From an uncultured Burkholderiaceae bacterium (lineage in GTDB: Bacteria; Pseudomonadota; Gammaproteobacteria; Burkholderiales; Burkholderiaceae_C): a stretch of DNA of 64,000 nt. Every line of letters begins with the position of its first letter. The first letter of the stretch is position 1. The position numbers and the translations under genes are program-made. Location of the stretch: positions 1,227 to 65,226 of the forward strand of contig CAYJLV010000022.1 of assembly GCA_964371405.1 (NCBI GenBank), in the 5' to 3' direction. Positions 57,316-63,007 of the stretch are shown here, one piece after another. The notes below the pieces were generated by a model. That model worked only from the letters and a program-made list of their open reading frames with translations, made no database searches and was not told the origin of the DNA.

Positions 57316-57906
57316 ATGACGAATCCGCCCATCAGCCGCTGGCCGGTGCCCGCCCTCGAAGATCTGCCCGACGACATCCGTGTGCGCATCCTCGAAGTGC
57401 AGGCCAAGGCCGGCTTCGTGCCCAACGTGTTCCTCACGCTGGCGCACCGCCCCGACGAGTTCCGCGCCTTCATGGCCTACCACGACGCGCTGCTGCTGCG
57501 CGAGTCGGGCCTGACCAAGGGCGAGAAGGAGATGATCATCGTCGCCACGAGCGGCGCCAACGGCTGCCTCTACTGCGTCGTCGCGCACGGTGCGATCCTG
57601 CGCGTCTACGAGAAGAAGCCCCTCATCGCCGACCAGATCGCGGTCAACTACCGCAAGGCCGACCTCACGCCGCGCCAGCAGGCCATGCTCGACTTCGCGA
57701 TGAAGGTCTGCACCGACTCGGCCGCCATCGCCGACGCCGAATTCGACGCGCTGCGCGCGCACGGCTTCGGCGATGAAGACATCTGGGACATCGGCGCCAT
57801 CACGGCCTTCTTCGGTTTGTCCAACCGCATGGCCAACCTGATCTCGATGCGGCCGAACGACGAGTTCTATCTGATGGGGCGGGTGCCGCGGGCGGCGAAG
57901 AGCTGA
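57316..57906 (+). CDS. AhpD-like / carboxymuconolactone decarboxylase family peroxidase-related protein
   Basis: CMD-domain motif with CxxC (GANGCLYCVVAHG). Starts 4 nt after the msbA stop. Confidence 0.8.
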   Translation: MTNPPISRWPVPALEDLPDDIRVRILEVQAKAGFVPNVFLTLAHRPDEFRAFMAYHDALLLRESGLTKGEKEMIIVATSGANGCLYCVVAHGAILRVYEKKPLIADQIAVNYRKADLTPRQQAMLDFAMKVCTDSAAIADAEFDALRAHGFGDEDIWDIGAITAFFGLSNRMANLISMRPNDEFYLMGRVPRAAKS

Positions 57907-57989
57907 GCGGCGTAGCCGAGTACCTTCTCTGCGAACGCGATCATGTCGTCGATGTCGAAGCGCCATTCGCGATCGGCGGGTTCAGACAT
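57867..57989 (-). pseudogene. N-terminal stub of a DUF86/HepT-type toxin gene
   Basis: MSEPADREWRFDIDDMIAFAEKVLGYAAQ resembles the DUF86 N-terminus. The frame then runs antisense into the ahpD-like 3' end and stops after 40 codons, whereas full-length proteins have about 115-140 aa. Confidence 0.5.
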
Positions 57990-58002
57990 GGACTGCCTCG
58001 CG

Positions 58003-58194
58003 CTATTTGAACGGCTGCAATTCGGGCCGCAGCGCCTTGTCGGTGACGAGATCGACCGGCCGCCCGAGCAGATCCTCCAGGAAGAACTGAATCCCAAAGC
58101 AGCGATCCGACGTGGCAGGGCCGTTGAAGGAAGCCAGGATGTCGACGTCGCTGTCGGATCGTGCTGCATCGCGCGCGGTCGATCCGAGCGCGGT
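58003..58194 (-). pseudogene. minimal nucleotidyltransferase (MNT antitoxin) remnant with in-frame TGA and no start codon
   Basis: Reads (TGA)TALGSTARDAARSDSDVDILASFNGPATSDRCFGIQFFLEDLLGRPVDLVTDKALRPELQPFK*. This is a GS-x9-13-D-x-D NTase core. The upstream frame has no ATG/GTG/TTG start. Its stop lies 13 nt before the HepT stub ATG. Confidence 0.55.
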
Positions 58195-58299
58195 TCATTC
58201 GAGACTCTGATTCTCAGCGAGGTCGATACGAGCGAAGTCTGGGCGCAGTCCTGTCAGATCCCGATTGTCGCTGCGTCTCGTCGATGCACAGGCAACCCC

Positions 58300-58521
58300 T
58301 CACAGCAGCACGATGTCGTATTGAGGGGGCGGATTCGGAAAGCGTTGACGGGACAACGACTTGCGCTCACGCCCTCGGCTTGTGTCGGTTCGAGCTACCC
58401 GTCTGGCTACCCTCGACCATCGGGCTTTGCCGAGACGCCGAAACACGTCGTGATCCACAAGGTCATCGCCCGAGACGTTCATCTTGATGAAGGCTACACC
58501 AATCCCGTTTGGGATCCGCAT
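58300..58521 (-). other. 73-codon ORF ending in an RNase G-like C-terminus (possible displaced rng 3' remnant)
   Basis: Ends ...QRFPNPPPQYDIVLL*, compared with the rng end ...AEPTGSPERYDIVLM*. Its ATG shares one nt with the HEPN stop (TGATG). Coding status is uncertain. Confidence 0.3.
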
Positions 58522-58928
58522 CAGAGCACGCCTTCCGCCCAGGCTGCGAACTCGTCCAACTCGACCAGCAGCCGCTGCGCCTCTTCGCGCGTGGTGCTTC
58601 GAGCGCCATAGTTGACTTCATCCTTGCGGCCGATCAGCTTGCGAAAGAATTTCTCCTGCTTGTCGGGCAGGCGGTTGCCCAACACCTCGCGCAGGAGCCT
58701 CGGCGCACTCTGGTGGTCCTGCTTGTTGACCACGCCCTTAGCCTTGGCTGTCACCGCGTCGCCGTACGCGATCGTCGCGGTGACCATCAGCGTGATGGCG
58801 CCGTTGTAGCTCTTGCTCTGGCCGAGCACGACCAAGCTGCGCGCCGACTCGTGGAACTCGCGCGCCTGCAGCAGCCGAGCCGACGAATGCACGGCGTCGA
58901 CCGCCTTGCGAGGGCCCTGATTCGTCAT
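58521..58928 (-). CDS. HEPN-like protein
   Basis: 135 aa and helical. ARLLQAREFHESARSLVVLGQSKSYNGAITLMVTATIAYGDAV ... GRKDEVNYGARSTTREEAQRLLVELDEFAAW has a HEPN-like layout. It shows R101-x5-Y107 where the canonical motif would be Rx4-6H. Its ATG overlaps the NTase stop (ATGA). Confidence 0.6.
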   Translation of the reverse strand: MTNQGPRKAVDAVHSSARLLQAREFHESARSLVVLGQSKSYNGAITLMVTATIAYGDAVTAKAKGVVNKQDHQSAPRLLREVLGNRLPDKQEKFFRKLIGRKDEVNYGARSTTREEAQRLLVELDEFAAWAEGVL

Positions 58929-59575
58929 GCGGTTGCCTTCGCGAGCCTCCGGCGCGCTTGATCGGGCGCCGCGCCCTTGAGGACTCGGCCATCACGCACG
59001 ACATCGGACCACCAGGGGTCGTCTTCGGGTAGGGCCGCCAGCTCCTTCGGCGTGAGCGCCGTCAGCGAGATGCGCAGTTGCTGGCCATCTTCGAGAGGCA
59101 TCAGATCCTCCCGGACCTGATCGGCCACAGCCTGTGAGCGGACCAGGATCGCGATGTCGAGATCGCTGGCGGGCGAGTCCTCCCCGCGTGCGACGCTGCC
59201 GTAGAGCCACGCAGCGCTGACCGCCGGGCCGCGCCTGGCCAGTACCTCGCGGATCGATTCGAGCAAGGCATCCCAGCGCCGTTGTTCTTCCTGAAACAGA
59301 GCGACGAGCGCGCCGGAAAAAGGGTGTGACGGTTTCAGTGCGTACAGCTGAGTTCGCCCTGAACCGTGGATGATCACCAGTTGCTGTCGGGCGAGCGTGT
59401 CCAGAACCAGCCTAACGCCCTGCGGCGTGAGGCCTGCCACCCCGGCGAGTTGTGGCGCCGATTGCGGTGCCCGGTCTGCCACCAGCGCGCGCAGGACGCG
59501 CACGCTTCCGGCGCTACCCAGGATGCTGGTGAGCGGGTACCGAAGGTGGCTTTGGGTCTGGGACAGCGCAGGCAT
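58925..59575 (-). CDS. winged-helix DNA-binding domain fused to a minimal nucleotidyltransferase
   Basis: N-terminal MarR/ArsR-like wHTH (VRVLRALVADRAPQSAPQLAGVAGLTPQGVRLVLDTLARQQLV). NTase motif LYGSVARGEDSPASDLDIAIL (G126-S127 ... D138-x-D140). Confidence 0.75.
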   Translation of the reverse strand: MPALSQTQSHLRYPLTSILGSAGSVRVLRALVADRAPQSAPQLAGVAGLTPQGVRLVLDTLARQQLVIIHGSGRTQLYALKPSHPFSGALVALFQEEQRRWDALLESIREVLARRGPAVSAAWLYGSVARGEDSPASDLDIAILVRSQAVADQVREDLMPLEDGQQLRISLTALTPKELAALPEDDPWWSDVVRDGRVLKGAAPDQARRRLAKATA

Positions 59576-59580
59576 GCCGA

Positions 59581-59609
59581 AACATATGACTTTGCTTACG
59601 ACAAGTCAA
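59581..59609 (-). promoter_or_regulatory. sigma-70-like promoter TTGACT-N17-TATGTT for the wHTH-NTase/HEPN pair
   Basis: On the minus strand, TTGACT (59609-59604), a 17-nt spacer, then TATGTT (59586-59581). Only 5 nt (tcggc) lie between the -10 and the ATG at 59575, and there is no SD. Confidence 0.5.
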
Positions 59610-59632
59610 GTTTCTCTATGGAAAGTTGACTT
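59603..59632. promoter_or_regulatory. 12-bp inverted repeat overlapping the -35 (candidate autoregulatory operator)
   Basis: aagtcaagtttc-tctatg-gaaagttgactt has 11 of 12 complementary positions. It lies in a very A/T-rich spacer (22 G+C in nt 59581-59640). Confidence 0.5.
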
Positions 59633-59753
59633 CTCACTACGCAACCCTACTCGGGTGCACCTGCCGCCGCACTTCGCGGGAGGCACTCTCAACCAGGCGT
59701 CTAGTCCCAAGATGGGACTTCGGTCAATCTCGAGCCCTCGACGGCCGCTTCCA

Positions 59754-61349
59754 TCAGCCCGACCTCCAAACGAGTTCCTCGTCGATGACCTCGATGAACC
59801 TCGCGGCAGTGAAGCCGCCGGGGTAGAGCCCTTCTCGATCCTGCGAGGCCCGCGGTTGCCGCTCAGCGCTTCTCTCGGAGCGCGCAGACAGCAGTCCTTC
59901 CGGGTCGTCGAGCAGGTGGCGGTCGTCGCGCAAGGCGATGAGGATCTCCTCGAGCGAGACCTTGAGGAAGCCGGAGAAGCGCTGGTGATCGCACTCGATG
60001 GACGTGTCGACGATCCAGCCATGGACGTCGGTCAAGGGCACGTGCGCAGGGCCGCCGAACGCCTCGACCAGCGAGGAGTCGACCTCCAGCGCCGACCGCA
60101 CTGCGGCAAGCTTCCGACCGATCTGCCGGCCCGCCCTGCGCAAGGTGGATGTCCCGTGCACCCAGGCGTCGCGCTGTGACTGGCGCACGTAGGTCGACTT
60201 GATCTCCAGGACGAACAGATGGCCGTCGCGTGCGGCGATCACGTCGACCTCACCGGCCTCCTTCGCGTCGGCGGGAGGATTCCAGTTCGTCACGACGCGG
60301 AAGCCTCTCCCGCGCAGAAGGTCCGCCAGCCGAGTCTCGATCTGCTGTGTCTCGTCCCGAGCCTCGGTGCGCCGTGACCCCAGGCGGCGCAGATTGTTGA
60401 TGGCCGCAGTGCTGTTGTTCTGCGTGCCGACGACCCAGGGCAACTGGACGAACGTCGCGCCGAACCGGAGCACCGGGCGCTCGAACAGGCGTGGATGCAG
60501 TCCGCCCTCACCGCGCTGGAGCCGCTCGGCGATCGCCACGAGGTCATAGGTCCAGAAGTCCAGGATCGCCGCGGCCATTCGGGCGCTGCCCTGAGGCTGC
60601 GCGTCGTTGACCGTCCAGCCGGTGATGTTCGCGATCCTCGCCGACCGATCGGACCAGGTCAGCGGCCAGCGGTTCTGCAACCCATCGCGCAGGCCGTTGA
60701 AGGCCAGTGCGCGCAGGCCGGCGATCCAGTCTCCGCTCTGCGAGGTCAGCACCGCGAACTCGGCGAGGAAGTCGCGCAGGAAGAACACCGACATCAGCTC
60801 CAGCGAGAGCAAGGCCTGGAACAGATCCACGCTCTCGCCGGACTCGGCCACGACCCGGTCGCCGACCCCGTACACCTCGCGCAGGCGCAGCTGGGTTCGC
60901 ATCGCCCGGATGTAGGCGAGCCGGTTGTGATCCGCGTTCTCGGGACTGCCGATTCGGGCATGTGCGAGCGCCGAGTCGGCAAAGGCACCGGCAGCCCGGT
61001 AGAACCAGTAGCCGTGCAGGCGCTCGAGCTTGCTGCCGTCGCAAGACCAGCGGGCCCTGCTTGCCGGATCGATCTCGACAATCTCCAGTCGGTTGCCACG
61101 TCGCTCGAATCGGATCGAGTCATCGTGGCAGAAAGCGTCGATGCTTCTCGACATGAACTCGTCGAGCTCGATCTGCGCCTCCAGCATCGTGCCGAAAAAA
61201 TCCAGCGTCGCGTGCGCGGCTGAAGCGTCCGGGAACTCCGGGAACAGCGCCGCCGAGATGAAGCTCCTGACAGAACCGGCGATGGCCTGGTCGTCCAGGC
61301 GCAAGGACGCCGGGGCAGCGCTTCGCAGCTTGCCCCGCTCTCCTGCCAT
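59754..61349 (-). CDS. 531-aa protein with an unrecognised N-terminal region and a C-terminal PD-(D/E)xK (restriction-endonuclease-fold) signature
   Basis: aa 333-384, ETQQIETRLADLLRGRGFRVVTNWNPPADAKEAGEVDVIAARDGHLFVLEIKS, matches the E ... GEiDlIa ... lvfvEvK pattern of YraN/NERD/Mrr-type nucleases (D369, E382, K384). AAGGAG lies 8 nt upstream of the ATG. Confidence 0.7.
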   Translation of the reverse strand: MAGERGKLRSAAPASLRLDDQAIAGSVRSFISAALFPEFPDASAAHATLDFFGTMLEAQIELDEFMSRSIDAFCHDDSIRFERRGNRLEIVEIDPASRARWSCDGSKLERLHGYWFYRAAGAFADSALAHARIGSPENADHNRLAYIRAMRTQLRLREVYGVGDRVVAESGESVDLFQALLSLELMSVFFLRDFLAEFAVLTSQSGDWIAGLRALAFNGLRDGLQNRWPLTWSDRSARIANITGWTVNDAQPQGSARMAAAILDFWTYDLVAIAERLQRGEGGLHPRLFERPVLRFGATFVQLPWVVGTQNNSTAAINNLRRLGSRRTEARDETQQIETRLADLLRGRGFRVVTNWNPPADAKEAGEVDVIAARDGHLFVLEIKSTYVRQSQRDAWVHGTSTLRRAGRQIGRKLAAVRSALEVDSSLVEAFGGPAHVPLTDVHGWIVDTSIECDHQRFSGFLKVSLEEILIALRDDRHLLDDPEGLLSARSERSAERQPRASQDREGLYPGGFTAARFIEVIDEELVWRSG

Positions 61350-61374
61350 GCCCAGCTCCTTGGCACCGGATCGC

Positions 61375-61406
61375 AGCTACCACTCTAGCTACCATTCCAG
61401 CTTCCA
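61375..61406. repeat. three 8-bp direct repeats AGCT(A/T)CCA at exact 12-bp phasing
   Basis: AGCTACCA at 61375, AGCTACCA at 61387, AGCTTCCA at 61399. They lie 26-57 nt upstream of the 531-aa ORF start. Confidence 0.5.
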
Positions 61407-61525
61407 AATTCTGGTGGAACAGGGTGGGACTTCAAGAGTCCTGGTGAAGCGCTGAAACCCGGAATCGCCAGGATTCATGCGGGTTTGCGGGTGGCAAGTG
61501 GGTCGGCGTGAGACGCCGTGAAACC

Positions 61526-63007
61526 TCACATCAGAACAATGTCGTAGCGCTCAGGCGACCCCGTCGGCTCGGCCCGCAGCGAGATCGGCTTGCCGATGAA
61601 TTCCGACAGCGCCGCCAGGTGCAGCCCCTCCTCGTCGAGCAGCATCTCGACGACGGCGGCCGAGGCGACGACGCGGAACTCCTTGGGGTTGAACTGGCGC
61701 GCCTCGCGCAGGATCTCGCGCAGGATGTCGTAGCAGACGCTGCGCGGCGTCTTGACCTGGCCCTTGCCTTCGCAGGTCGGGCACGGCTCGCACAGCATGT
61801 GGGCGAGCGATTCGCGGGTGCGCTTGCGCGTCATCTCCACCAGCCCGAGCTGCGTGAAGCCGCTGACGGTGATCTTGGTGCGGTCGCGCGCGAGCTGGCG
61901 CCGCAGCTCGGCGAGCACGGCGACGCGGTGGTCCTCGCGCGCCATGTCGATGAAGTCGAGGATGATGATGCCGCCGAGGTTGCGCAGCCGCAGCTGGCGA
62001 GCGATCGCCTGCGTCGCCTCGAGGTTGGTCTTGAAGACGGTGTCGTCGAAGTTGCGCGCGCCGACGTAGCCGCCGGTGTTGACGTCGACCGTCGTCAGCG
62101 CTTCGGTCTGGTCGATCACCAGGTAGCCGCCCGACTTCAGCTCGACGCGCCGCGCCAGCGCGCGCGTGATCTCCTCGTCGATGCCGTAGAGGTCGAATAT
62201 CGGCCGCTCGCCCTTGTAATGCTCGAGCTTCTTCACTGCACCGGGCGTGAAGGCCTCGCCGAAGGCGCGCAGCGTCTCGTACTGCAGCTTCGAGTCGATG
62301 CGGATCGACTGCGTCGCGTCGTTGGTCAGGTCGCGCAGCACACGCTCGCCGAGGCTCAGGTCCAGGTGCAGCAGCGTGCCGGGCGGCGCCGCCTGGCTGC
62401 GCTCGCGCACCGCGGCCCAGGTGCGGCGCAGGTAGCGGATGTCGTCGGCCAGCTCGGCGTCGGTCGCGTCCTCGGCGTTGGTGCGCAGGATGAAGCCGCC
62501 GCCCACGGTGCCGGCCTCGGGCGCGGCGGCCAGCAGCGCCATGCGCGCGCGAAGTTGCTCGCGCAGCTCGGGCGAACCGATCTTCTGGCTGATGCCGATG
62601 CGCTCGTCCTGCGGCAGGAAGACCAGCAGCCGGCCGGCGATGCTGATCTGCGACGACAGGCGCGCACCCTTGGTGCCGATCGGGTCCTTGATCACCTGCA
62701 CCGTCAGCGGTTGGCCCTCGAACACGAGTCGCTCGATCGGCGGCGGTGCCGCGTCGCCGGCGCCGTTGCGCGCCGGCATGTTGGCGAGGTGCAGGTCGGC
62801 AACGTGCAGGAACGCGGCGCGTTCGAGGCCGATGTCGACGAAGGCCGACTGCATGCCCGGCAGCACGCGCGCGACGCGGCCGGCATAGATGTTGCCGACC
62901 AGCCCGCGTTCGAGCGCGCGCTCGAGGTGCAGCTCCTGGACGGCGCCGTTCTCGACGATCGCGACCCGCGTTTCCTGCGGCGTCCAGTTGATCAGGATGT
63001 CTTGCAT
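61526..63007 (-). CDS. rng: ribonuclease G
   Basis: MQDILINWTPQETRVAIVENGAVQELHLE..., an S1 domain and RNase E/G catalytic-core motifs. 493 aa. Confidence 0.95.
   Translation of the reverse strand: MQDILINWTPQETRVAIVENGAVQELHLERALERGLVGNIYAGRVARVLPGMQSAFVDIGLERAAFLHVADLHLANMPARNGAGDAAPPPIERLVFEGQPLTVQVIKDPIGTKGARLSSQISIAGRLLVFLPQDERIGISQKIGSPELREQLRARMALLAAAPEAGTVGGGFILRTNAEDATDAELADDIRYLRRTWAAVRERSQAAPPGTLLHLDLSLGERVLRDLTNDATQSIRIDSKLQYETLRAFGEAFTPGAVKKLEHYKGERPIFDLYGIDEEITRALARRVELKSGGYLVIDQTEALTTVDVNTGGYVGARNFDDTVFKTNLEATQAIARQLRLRNLGGIIILDFIDMAREDHRVAVLAELRRQLARDRTKITVSGFTQLGLVEMTRKRTRESLAHMLCEPCPTCEGKGQVKTPRSVCYDILREILREARQFNPKEFRVVASAAVVEMLLDEEGLHLAALSEFIGKPISLRAEPTGSPERYDIVLM

What the first reader, a model, noticed from the sequence alone, without database searches (positions are those of the whole stretch)
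58521..59575. wHTH-fused nucleotidyltransferase translationally coupled to a HEPN-like protein with a non-canonical motif
This is an MNT/HEPN-type pair with a 4-nt ATGA overlap at 58925-58928, and it differs from the classical module in two ways. First, the NTase carries an N-terminal MarR/ArsR-like winged helix of about 95 aa, so the DNA-binding and NTase functions sit in one polypeptide. Second, the HEPN-like partner shows R101-KDEVN-Y107 at the place where a catalytic Rx4-6H would be expected, so it may not be an RNase. The gene order (NTase first, HEPN second) matches type VII-like HepT/MntA logic.
Basis: partly seen in the sequence, partly recalled or inferred. Interest (0 to 1): 0.6.

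Follow-up and report, generated by a model that had tools for sequence, protein, structure and literature searches.

The report
wHTH-nucleotidyltransferase plus HEPN toxin-antitoxin-like pair
This is an intact, mobile two-gene cassette: a DNA-binding nucleotidyltransferase followed by a small HEPN-fold protein. It belongs to an already catalogued but barely studied candidate phage-defence / toxin-antitoxin type (PADLOC PDC-M05), so it is a real but fairly ordinary find.

Summary
Two minus-strand genes, 216 aa at 58925-59575 and 135 aa at 58521-58928, overlap by ATGA.

- **216-aa protein.** It has an ArsR/MarR-like winged helix (about residues 14-82) fused to an MntA-type minimal nucleotidyltransferase with an exact GS-X10-DXD motif.
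- **135-aa protein.** It is a confident HEPN fold: pLDDT 94, best PDB match AF0298/2hsb at TM 0.75. Pfam, NCBIfam and PADLOC do not call it.
- **Neither claimed departure is new.**
  - The wHTH-NTase fusion is the defining architecture of PADLOC's PDC-M05A, which matches full length at E 2e-16.
  - A HEPN motif without histidine is the described AF0298-like HEPN-T pattern.
  - Across the family, R101 and N106 vary. K102 and D57 are invariant, and H72 and Y107 are at least 90% conserved. K102, H72 and Y107 map onto the basic residue, the alternative His and the acceptor Tyr of UPF0332 HEPNs.
- **The pair is a unit.** It is kept together in 24 of 24 Burkholderiales loci and in 4 of 4 distant relatives. 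dN/dS is about 0.17 for both genes. A conserved, probably leaderless promoter carries a co-varying inverted repeat. The pair recurs just downstream of rng.
- **Most likely function.** An autoregulated type VII-like toxin-antitoxin or defence module.

No biochemistry was tested.

The parts
59581..59609 (-). Sigma-70-type promoter: -35 TTGACT (59604-59609), 17-nt spacer, -10 TATGTT (59581-59586). Only 5 nt separate the -10 from the ATG, so the mRNA is probably leaderless.
   Evidence: It is the only promoter-like site found in 57800-61600. The -35, the -10 and their distance to the start codon are conserved in 24 loci, while DNA further upstream does not align.
59603..59632 (.). Candidate operator: inverted repeat AAGTCAACTTTC / GAAACTTGACTT. 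Arms are at 59621-59632 and 59603-59614, 11 of 12 complementary, with a 6-nt spacer. It overlaps the -35.
   Evidence: This upstream position is shared only with the closest relative, L029.
59588..59607 (.). Degenerate copy of the family-wide operator GACTTTC-N6-GAAAGTC, which spans the -35 and -10. Here it reads GACTTGT-N6-CAAAGTC.
   Evidence: In relatives this repeat starts at a fixed 33 nt from the start codon. It has at most 1 arm mismatch in 17 of 24 loci (including the window). The arms co-vary: GATTTTC/GAAAATC versus GACTTTC/GAAAGTC.
58925..59575 (-). Gene for the 216-aa wHTH-nucleotidyltransferase (PDC-M05A-like, MntA-like). It is the predicted antitoxin and autorepressor.
   Evidence: dN/dS is 0.18.
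59330..59536 (-). Winged helix-turn-helix domain, residues about 14-82.
   Evidence: AF2 elements H22-33, H40-47, H51-63, E67-70 and E77-80. Foldseek matches SmtB 1smt, AntR 6uvu and MarR-family regulators such as 3cdh. dN/dS is 0.18 for residues 1-95.
59156..59200 (-). NTase catalytic motif: G126-S127-X10-D138-x-D140.
   Evidence: These residues are invariant in 30 homologues. This is the GSX10DXD motif shown to be essential in MntA (PMC7641770).
58925..58928 (-). ATGA stop/start overlap that couples translation of the two genes.
   Evidence: An ATGA or GTGA junction is present in 24 of 24 loci.
58521..58928 (-). Gene for the 135-aa HEPN-fold protein (AF0298-like HEPN-T type). It is the predicted toxin or effector.
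   Evidence: pLDDT 94. PDB matches are 2hsb at TM 0.75, then 1ufb, 1wol, 4nqf, 3o10, 5yep and 7ae6. hhalign to UPF0332 gives E 4e-4. dN/dS is 0.16.
58608..58625 (-). K102-D-E-V-N-Y107, the family-conserved K-x4-Y motif. It sits where UPF0332 HEPNs have R-x3-D-Y and HepT has R-x4-H-x-Y.
   Evidence: K102 is invariant and Y107 is at least 90% conserved in 62 sequences. The AF0298 sequence reads DLREESDYG at this place.
58713..58715 (-). His72, at the start of helix 3 just after the insert between helices 2 and 3. It is the candidate alternative catalytic histidine.
   Evidence: At least 90% conserved. It aligns with H60 of UPF0332 and with the THRG motif of AF0298. The rationale is in PMC3710099.
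58758..58760 (-). Asp57, an invariant acidic residue on helix 2.
   Evidence: By analogy, helix-2 Q44 and E47 of the Legionella HEPN form its Mg site. Its position in the model could not be measured because no coordinates were available.

Best explanation
This is a self-contained, horizontally mobile two-gene module of the MNT-HEPN (type VII toxin-antitoxin-like) kind. More exactly, it is a Burkholderiales subfamily of PADLOC's candidate defence system PDC-M05.

**Proposed working (every step below is inferred).**
1. A sigma-70 promoter placed 5 nt before the ATG gives a probably leaderless bicistronic mRNA.
2. The second gene is translated by coupling through the ATGA overlap.
3. The first protein dimerises and binds the inverted repeats over its own -35/-10 through its ArsR/MarR-like winged helix. 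This represses the operon.
4. Its MntA-type NTase domain (GS-X10-DXD) nucleotidylylates the HEPN partner, most likely on the conserved Tyr107 next to the invariant Lys102. This keeps the partner inactive.
5. The HEPN partner is an AF0298-like HEPN-T protein. Its putative active site uses Lys102, the alternative His72 and perhaps Asp57 instead of the canonical Rx4-6H.
6. When the NTase is lost or blocked, for example by transcription shut-off or phage infection, unmodified HEPN would cut RNA and arrest growth.

**Shown here:** folds, motifs, gene linkage, purifying selection, promoter and operator conservation, and mobility.

**Inferred only:** DNA binding, nucleotidylylation, RNase activity, toxicity and defence.
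For: **Folds and motifs**
- NTase domain and GSX10DXD motif.
- The NTase model matches MntA (7bxo_A, 6m6v), the Aphanizomenon MNT (7ae9_G) and the Legionella MNT (8xeo), as well as ArsR, SmtB and MarR repressors.
- PDC-M05A matches full length at E 2.3e-16.
- The HEPN model has pLDDT 94 and its top PDB matches are all HEPN domains, including the HepT and HEPN toxins 5yep and 7ae6.
- In the HEPN family, 7 of 62 members touch Pfam HEPN and 3-4 of 62 touch PDC-M05B.
- hhalign to UPF0332 plus AF0298 gives E 4e-4, with K102=R92, H72=H60 and Y107=Y97.

**Linkage and selection**
- The NTase gene lies directly upstream of the HEPN gene in 24 of 24 Burkholderiales loci.
- The same holds in 4 of 4 relatives at 29-40% identity, whose NTases also hit PDC-M05A.
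- dN/dS is 0.16-0.18 for both genes and for both halves of the NTase.

**Regulation**
- The promoter is conserved and carries a co-varying inverted repeat.

**Mobility**
- Only 1 of 41 related genomes carries it.
- Contexts vary: a TA/IS island, a prophage end, and next to a PLD-helicase.
- It recurs just after rng.

**Literature**
- MntA AMPylates the Tyr next to the HEPN motif (PMC7641770).
- A conserved Tyr in MNT-linked HEPNs was predicted to be the acceptor (PMC3710099).
- One PDC-M05 system protected E. coli B against at least one of T4, T5 and T7 (bioRxiv 10.1101/2024.09.26.614923).
Against: - The 135-aa protein fails every curated sequence model. Pfam HEPN scores 13.4 bits against a cut-off of 22, and there is no PADLOC or NCBIfam hit.
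- The canonical RX4HXY motif is absent, and Lys replaces the motif Arg.
- NCBIfam MntA_antitoxin scores 37 bits against a cut-off of 60.
- hhalign probability is only 35%.
- No complex model, no expression data and no biochemistry were available.
- The spatial clustering of D57, H72, K102 and Y107 could not be measured.
- In this window the family-wide operator is degenerate, and the cassette sits in a decaying island.
Confidence: 0.62

Rival explanations
1. The pair is a two-subunit nucleotidyltransferase, not a toxin-antitoxin pair. The HEPN protein would be the substrate-binding subunit, as the helical C-terminal domain is in kanamycin nucleotidyltransferase. The enzyme would modify a small molecule or a nucleic acid, and the wHTH would only regulate expression.
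For: - The HEPN lacks Rx4-6H.
- The NTase has weak matches to ANT(4')/KNTase families.
- The historical view of HEPN as the substrate-binding subunit of MNTs is summarised in PMC3710099 and PMC2701414.
Against: - ANT matches are far below their cut-offs (20 bits against 350), and the best structural matches are MntA and MNT antitoxins.
- The conserved Lys, His, Asp and Tyr sit at the positions used by toxin-type HEPN-T proteins.
- The distribution is patchy and mobile, and the pair keeps company with TA, IS, prophage and defence genes.
Confidence: 0.12
2. It is a toxin-antitoxin-like module in which the HEPN protein acts without catalysis, for example by binding RNA or ribosomes, or as a co-repressor or sensor bound to the wHTH-NTase. 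In this reading the Arg-to-Lys change and the missing His mark a dead nuclease.
For: - Anantharaman et al. note that some MNT-linked HEPNs without the motif are still toxic, possibly by a non-catalytic mode.
- There is no canonical motif here.
Against: Invariant or near-invariant polar residues (D57, H72, K102, Y107) across 29-88% identity argue for a chemical role, not mere binding.
Confidence: 0.13
3. The copy in this window is a non-functional passenger, left over in a decaying island and no longer expressed or active.
For:
- The family-wide operator is degenerate in this copy.
Against: - Both ORFs are full length and keep every family-invariant residue.
- The promoter hexamers are intact.
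- A near-identical pair in L029 has the same operator variant.
Confidence: 0.08

Closest known systems
PADLOC candidate defence system PDC-M05 (M05A nucleotidyltransferase + M05B HEPN protein)
   Same: - Two adjacent genes. M05A combines an ArsR-like HTH with an NT_KNTase-like domain, and M05B is a HEPN protein.
- The window's NTase matches M05A over residues 16-196 of a 201-position model at E 2.3e-16.
- NTases paired with distant members of the HEPN family also match M05A.
   Different: - The window's HEPN protein does not match any M05B model. Only 3-4 of 62 family members do, at about 1e-4 to 3e-5.
- PDC-M05 is reported as enriched in Archaea, whereas this clade is from Burkholderiales, with distant relatives on rhizobial megaplasmids.
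Type VII HepT/MntA (HEPN/MNT) toxin-antitoxin systems: Shewanella SO_3165/3166, Aphanizomenon HEPN-MNT, Legionella HEPN-MNT
   Same: - The MNT gene comes first and overlaps the HEPN gene.
- The NTase has the GSX10DXD motif.
- Both proteins match the solved structures of these systems.
- A Tyr sits just after the motif's basic residue, which is where MntA adds AMP.
   Different: - Those MNTs are under 150 aa and carry no wHTH.
- Those HEPNs carry RX4HXY, whereas this one has K-x4-Y with no His.
- The NCBIfam MntA model scores below its cut-off.
AF0298-like HEPN-T / UPF0332 proteins (PF05168; PDB 2hsb, 9xbd)
   Same: - Best structural match, at TM 0.75.
- They also have no His in the motif, have an alternative His between helices 2 and 3, and have D/N-Y-G after the basic residue: AF0298 REESDYG against KDEVNYG here.
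- They are paired with an upstream overlapping MNT, as in L007.
   Different: - An invariant Lys replaces the Arg.
- The helix-2 Asp (D57) is not at the UPF0332 D39 position in the hhalign alignment.
- The Pfam score is below the gathering threshold.
- The partner NTase carries a wHTH, whereas the L007 MNT has 115 aa and none.

Membership tests
Type VII HepT/MntA TA system | Antitoxin is a minimal nucleotidyltransferase with the GSX10DXD motif | tested here: met
   G126-S127, ten residues, then D138-L-D140, all invariant in 30 homologues. Pfam Polbeta and NTP_transf_2 score above their cut-offs. Foldseek finds MntA. NCBIfam MntA_antitoxin is below its cut-off, 37 against 60 bits.
Type VII HepT/MntA TA system | Toxin has a HEPN fold | tested here: met
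   The AF2 model has pLDDT 94.1. PDB matches include 2hsb, 1ufb, 1wol, 4nqf, 3o10, 5yep and 7ae6.
Type VII HepT/MntA TA system | Toxin carries the RX4HXY (Rx4-6H plus Tyr) motif | tested here: not met
   The sequence reads R101-K102-D-E-V-N106-Y107. Across the family only K102 and Y107 are conserved, and there is no His.
Type VII HepT/MntA TA system | MNT gene lies 5' of the HEPN gene in one operon | tested here: met
   There is an ATGA overlap. The arrangement is conserved in 24 of 24 loci plus 4 of 4 distant relatives.
Type VII HepT/MntA TA system | HEPN is toxic, and the MNT neutralises it by oligo-AMPylation of the Tyr | not testable with these tools
   This needs expression tests and mass spectrometry.
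PADLOC PDC-M05 | M05A: HTH + NTase protein matching the M05A HMMs | tested here: met
   PDLC04368 E 2.3e-16, residues 16-196 on model positions 7-184 of 201. PDLC04369 E 3.1e-13.
PADLOC PDC-M05 | M05B: adjacent HEPN protein matching the M05B HMMs | tested here: inconclusive
   The window's protein has no M05B hit at E up to 1. Three of 62 family members hit PDLC04379 (best E 3.1e-5) and one hits PDLC04375. A canonical UPF0332 HEPN hits M05B equally weakly, at 6.7e-5.
PADLOC PDC-M05 | Confers phage resistance | not testable with these tools
   One PDC-M05 representative from another organism was reported to be protective. This subfamily is untested.
HEPN-T, AF0298-like / UPF0332 (PF05168) | Pfam PF05168 match above the gathering score | tested here: not met
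   13.4 bits against 22, E 0.092. Seven of 62 family members match at E up to 0.1, best 1e-3.
HEPN-T, AF0298-like / UPF0332 (PF05168) | Basic residue at the motif position, alternative His between helices 2 and 3, and a conserved Tyr after the motif | tested here: met
   K102 (Lys rather than Arg), H72 and Y107 align with R92, H60 and Y97 of UPF0332 (hhalign E 4e-4). They also align with THRG and REESDY of AF0298. The feature is described in PMC3710099.
ArsR/SmtB-MarR winged-helix repressors | wHTH fold: three helices plus a beta-hairpin wing | tested here: met
   Model elements at residues 22-80. Foldseek finds 1smt, 6uvu, 6j05, 3cdh and 3cuo. Sequence models are only sub-threshold.
ArsR/SmtB-MarR winged-helix repressors | Binds an inverted-repeat operator at its own promoter | not testable with these tools
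   A co-varying inverted repeat over the -35/-10 in 17 of 24 loci is consistent with this. Binding itself needs EMSA or footprinting.

The most novel reading that the evidence does not exclude
The Lys-for-Arg HEPN subfamily is not an RNase toxin. It is instead the regulatory or acceptor subunit of a DNA-tethered nucleotidyltransferase. In this reading the wHTH-NTase sits on DNA and builds a nucleotide chain or signal on Tyr107 or on another target. The weak resemblance of the NTase to the Hailong HalB nucleotidyltransferase hints at this. Phage infection would be sensed through loss of that product. That would make PDC-M05 a signalling-type defence and not a type VII TA.
Probability: 0.12. Interest if true: 0.6.

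Novelty: new member of a known kind. Interest (0 to 1): 0.3.

Why it matters
- **Naming.** The analysis gives a name and a testable model to a family annotated only as 'hypothetical protein'. About 250 clusters at 50% identity match at E up to 0.001, with intact copies in many Burkholderiales.
- **Sequence models miss the HEPN half.** Pfam and PADLOC models do not detect the HEPN partner of this PDC-M05-like module.
- **Testable active site.** The family documents a natural Arg-to-Lys, His-less HEPN motif that keeps the acceptor Tyr. This could help settle which residues HEPN-T toxins really use for catalysis, a question reopened by the Legionella HEPN work.
- **Possible hotspot.** Recurrence just downstream of rng suggests an integration hotspot for defence and TA cargo in this order.

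None of this would surprise a specialist.

Tried and rejected
- **PDB sequence searches.** Searches with the 135-aa protein and with its 62-sequence profile found nothing usable.
- **First hhalign run.** Against a narrow UPF0332 alignment it was weak (E 0.024, probability 2%, with a gap inside the motif). It improved only after AF0298 and 9xbd were added.
- **PADLOC on the HEPN protein.** No defence-family hit for the window's copy.
- **Spurious weak hits.** DUF4129, the FimV C-terminal domain and the 'oligonucleotide cyclase' hits are short, sub-threshold and inconsistent, and were judged spurious.
- **Phage and viral searches.** No match in the phage records, and no significant match in the viral structure library.
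- **AbiE (AbiEi/AbiEii).** It was considered because of the wHTH plus NTase theme. It was rejected because in AbiE the two functions sit on different proteins with a DUF1814 NTase, and only one family member touched AbiEi, at 9e-4.
- **R101 as the motif Arg.** Rejected because R101 is not conserved across the family.
Full report
**1. Observation**

The minus strand carries two ORFs: 58925..59575 (216 aa) and 58521..58928 (135 aa). The plus strand reads TCAT at 58925-58928. The stop of the first gene and the start of the second therefore overlap as ATGA.

**2. The 216-aa protein**

- Pfam Polbeta (2.6e-9) and NTP_transf_2 (5.5e-8) match residues 106-164, both above their cut-offs.
- The sequence has G126-S127, ten residues, then D138-L-D140. 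This is exactly the GSX10DXD motif that MntA needs to adenylylate HepT (PMC7641770). These residues are invariant in 30 homologues.
- Sequence models see the N-terminal part only weakly: O-methyltransferase dimerisation wHTH 7e-4, HTH_20 0.018, ArsR 0.04.
- The AF2 model (pLDDT 84) shows three helices and a beta-hairpin wing at residues 22-80. A long helix at 87-114 follows, and then the NTase core.
- Foldseek against the PDB returns two groups. One is the type VII antitoxins: Shewanella MntA 7bxo, 6m6u and 6m6v, Aphanizomenon MNT 7ae9 and Legionella MNT 8xeo. The other is ArsR, SmtB, AntR and MarR repressors.
- It is not new. PADLOC's PDC-M05A model aligns over residues 16-196 of its 201 positions at E 2.3e-16.
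- PDC-M05 is described as a nucleotidyltransferase plus a HEPN-domain protein (PMC12988326). [quoted passage not shown]

**3. The 135-aa protein**

- No curated model calls it. Pfam HEPN gives 13.4 bits against a cut-off of 22, and NCBIfam and PADLOC give nothing. PDB sequence searches are empty.
- An exhaustive search of 1.8 billion cluster representatives finds 252 relatives at E up to 0.001. Most are 135-140 aa.
- With a 62-sequence alignment at 29-88% identity, AF2 gives a helical bundle at pLDDT 94.1 and pTM 0.89.
- Its top PDB matches are all HEPN domains: AF0298 (2hsb, TM 0.75, rmsd 2.2), TT1696 (1ufb), ST0689 (1wol), 4nqf, the sacsin HEPN (3o10) and the toxins HepT (5yep) and Aphanizomenon HEPN (7ae6).
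- Seven of 62 family members touch Pfam HEPN, and three or four touch PDC-M05B.
The fold is HEPN.

**4. The motif**

- The window's protein reads R101-K-D-E-V-N-Y107.
- Across the family, R101 and N106 vary. D57 and K102 are invariant. R18, A22, A58, H72, Y107 and W130 are at least 90% conserved.
- A canonical MNT/HEPN pair from a related genome served as a yardstick (L007: a 115-aa MNT overlapping a 132-aa UPF0332 HEPN). Its HEPN family has invariant R92, D96, Y97 and H60, and also has no motif His.
- The AF0298 sequence shown reads ...SKTHRG... and ...DLREESDYG....
- The profile-profile comparison used the 62-sequence family on one side. The other side was UPF0332 plus AF0298 plus 9xbd. It gives E 4e-4 (probability 35%) over 112-121 columns, with no gap in the motif region. 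It maps K102 to R92, N106 to D96, Y107 to Y97 and H72 to H60.
- This is the pattern Anantharaman et al. describe for AF0298-like HEPN-T proteins and for AbiV. The His of Rx4-6H is absent and the basic residue is kept. A second conserved His from the insert between helices 2 and 3 may complete an alternative active site.
- The same paper predicts that the conserved Tyr of MNT-linked HEPNs is the nucleotidylylation site (PMC3710099).
- In the model, H72 sits at the start of helix 3, right after a short strand that follows helix 2.
- The only real departure is Lys for Arg, and it is invariant in this family.
- The inference that the protein 'may not be an RNase' is weak. In the Legionella HEPN toxin, R98A and H103A hardly affect RNase activity or toxicity, whereas helix-2 Q44 and E47 do (PMC11586414). 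Here helix 2 carries the invariant D57.

**5. The pair is one unit**

- A scan of species-representative genomes gave 26 loci, all Burkholderiales: Paucibacter, Ideonella, Rubrivivax, Ramlibacter, Azohydromonas, Accumulibacter and Rhodoferax.
- In all 24 loci that contain upstream DNA, the wHTH-NTase gene directly precedes the HEPN gene. The junction is ATGA or GTGA in 24 of 24.
- Four distant family members (29-40% identity) also have an overlapping upstream NTase gene. The three full-length upstream NTases that were scanned hit PDC-M05A at 1e-13 to 5e-16.
- Over 16 intact loci, the median dN/dS is 0.18 for the NTase. It is the same for the wHTH half and the NTase half. It is 0.16 for the HEPN gene.

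**6. Regulation**

- The only promoter-like site in 57800-61600 is TTGACT-17-TATGTT at 59609-59581. It ends 5 nt before the ATG, and there is no Shine-Dalgarno sequence.
- The last 45-50 nt before the start codon align across 24 loci: GGAAAnTTGACTTTC-TnTAnG-GAAAGTCATAT followed by about 9 nt and the start codon. DNA further upstream does not align.
- This marks the module's boundary and points to a leaderless mRNA.
- The inverted repeat GACTTTC-N6-GAAAGTC begins at a fixed 33 nt from the start codon. It has at most one arm mismatch in 17 of 24 loci. The arms co-vary: GATTTTC/GAAAATC in three loci against GACTTTC/GAAAGTC in six. A dimeric wHTH operator would show this pattern.
- In the window, and in its closest relative L029, this repeat is degenerate (GACTTGT / CAAAGTC in the window).
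L029 has only a weaker repeat at that position.

**7. Context and mobility**

- The cassette lies in a lower-GC stretch (about 61-68% against about 70% in the flanks) between an AhpD-like gene and rng.
- Of 41 related genomes, only the window's own has the HEPN family.
- Elsewhere the pair sits in a TA/IS/integrase island, at a prophage end, or next to a PLD-helicase.
- In at least nine loci the stop of rng (...YDIVL[LM]*) lies upstream of the pair on the same strand. In most of these it is less than about 330 nt from the NTase start; in one locus it is about 1 kb away.
- Distant homologues occur on Rhizobium and Sinorhizobium megaplasmids. None occur in phage records or in the viral structure library.

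**8. Verdict**

- This is a real, intact, selected two-gene module.
- Its best description is a Burkholderiales subfamily of the PDC-M05 / MNT-HEPN kind. The components are an autoregulating wHTH-MntA-like NTase and an AF0298-like HEPN-T partner with K-x4-Y in place of R-x4-H-x-Y.
- The mechanism is inferred from relatives, not shown: operator binding, Tyr107 nucleotidylylation, and RNase toxicity through K102, H72 and D57.
- One PDC-M05 from another organism has been reported to protect E. coli against phage. This subfamily is untested.
- Interest is modest.

Noticed in passing
window 57870-58194 (minus strand): There is a decayed canonical MNT-HepT pair here. A 63-residue NTase core at 58006-58194 (GSTARD...SDVDIL...VDLV) follows an in-frame stop and still hits NTP_transf_2 at 1.4e-10. 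About 40 codons of a HepT-like N-terminus (MSEPADREWRFDIDDMIAFAEKVLGYA..., 57870-57989) run into the 3' end of the convergent AhpD-like gene. Pfam does not detect the stub.
   Followed up: partly
window 58298-58320 and 61524-61546; loci L002, L014, L015, L018, L020, L023, L028, L030, L034: The last codons of rng (..YDIVL[LM] plus stop) occur twice in the window. One copy ends the real rng and a second lies just downstream of the HEPN gene. In at least nine other genomes the rng stop lies upstream of the pair on the same strand, usually within about 330 nt. This suggests an integration hotspot, or an att-like site, at the 3' end of rng.
   Followed up: partly
window 59754-61349 (minus strand): The 531-aa neighbour matches PADLOC 'viperin-associated NERD' at 9.6e-23 over its C-terminal 200 residues. 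It matches Pfam NERD, Hjc and YraN only weakly. That claim was not re-examined here.
   Followed up: no
window 59528-59575 (residues 1-16 of the NTase): The first 16 residues (MPALSQTQSHLRYPLT) are predicted to be disordered (pLDDT below 50 for residues 1-13). Even so they are strongly conserved: M1, S5, S9, R12, P14, L15 and T16 are invariant in 30 homologues. This could be a degron, a contact with the HEPN partner, or a constraint from leaderless initiation.
   Followed up: no
loci L021, L023, L024, L026, L034, L036, L037: In 7 of 24 loci the NTase gene starts with GTG at the same distance from the -10. That is unusual if the mRNA really is leaderless.
   Followed up: no
L002 6593-9775; L041 465-1655: Neighbours of the pair in other genomes include a 1060-aa PLD-nuclease/helicase/DUF3427 protein and an AAA_16/nSTAND1 ATPase. 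Both are of the kind found in defence islands.
   Followed up: no
loci L026, L030, L032, L034, L035: Several relatives have frameshifted or internally deleted copies of one or other gene. These may be decay or MAG assembly errors, and the two were not told apart.
   Followed up: no
plasmid records H2-H12 (Sinorhizobium megaplasmids): Matches to only the C-terminal half of the HEPN protein, split into two pieces, recur on many S. meliloti and S. medicae megaplasmids. They may be conserved pseudogene fragments.
   Followed up: no
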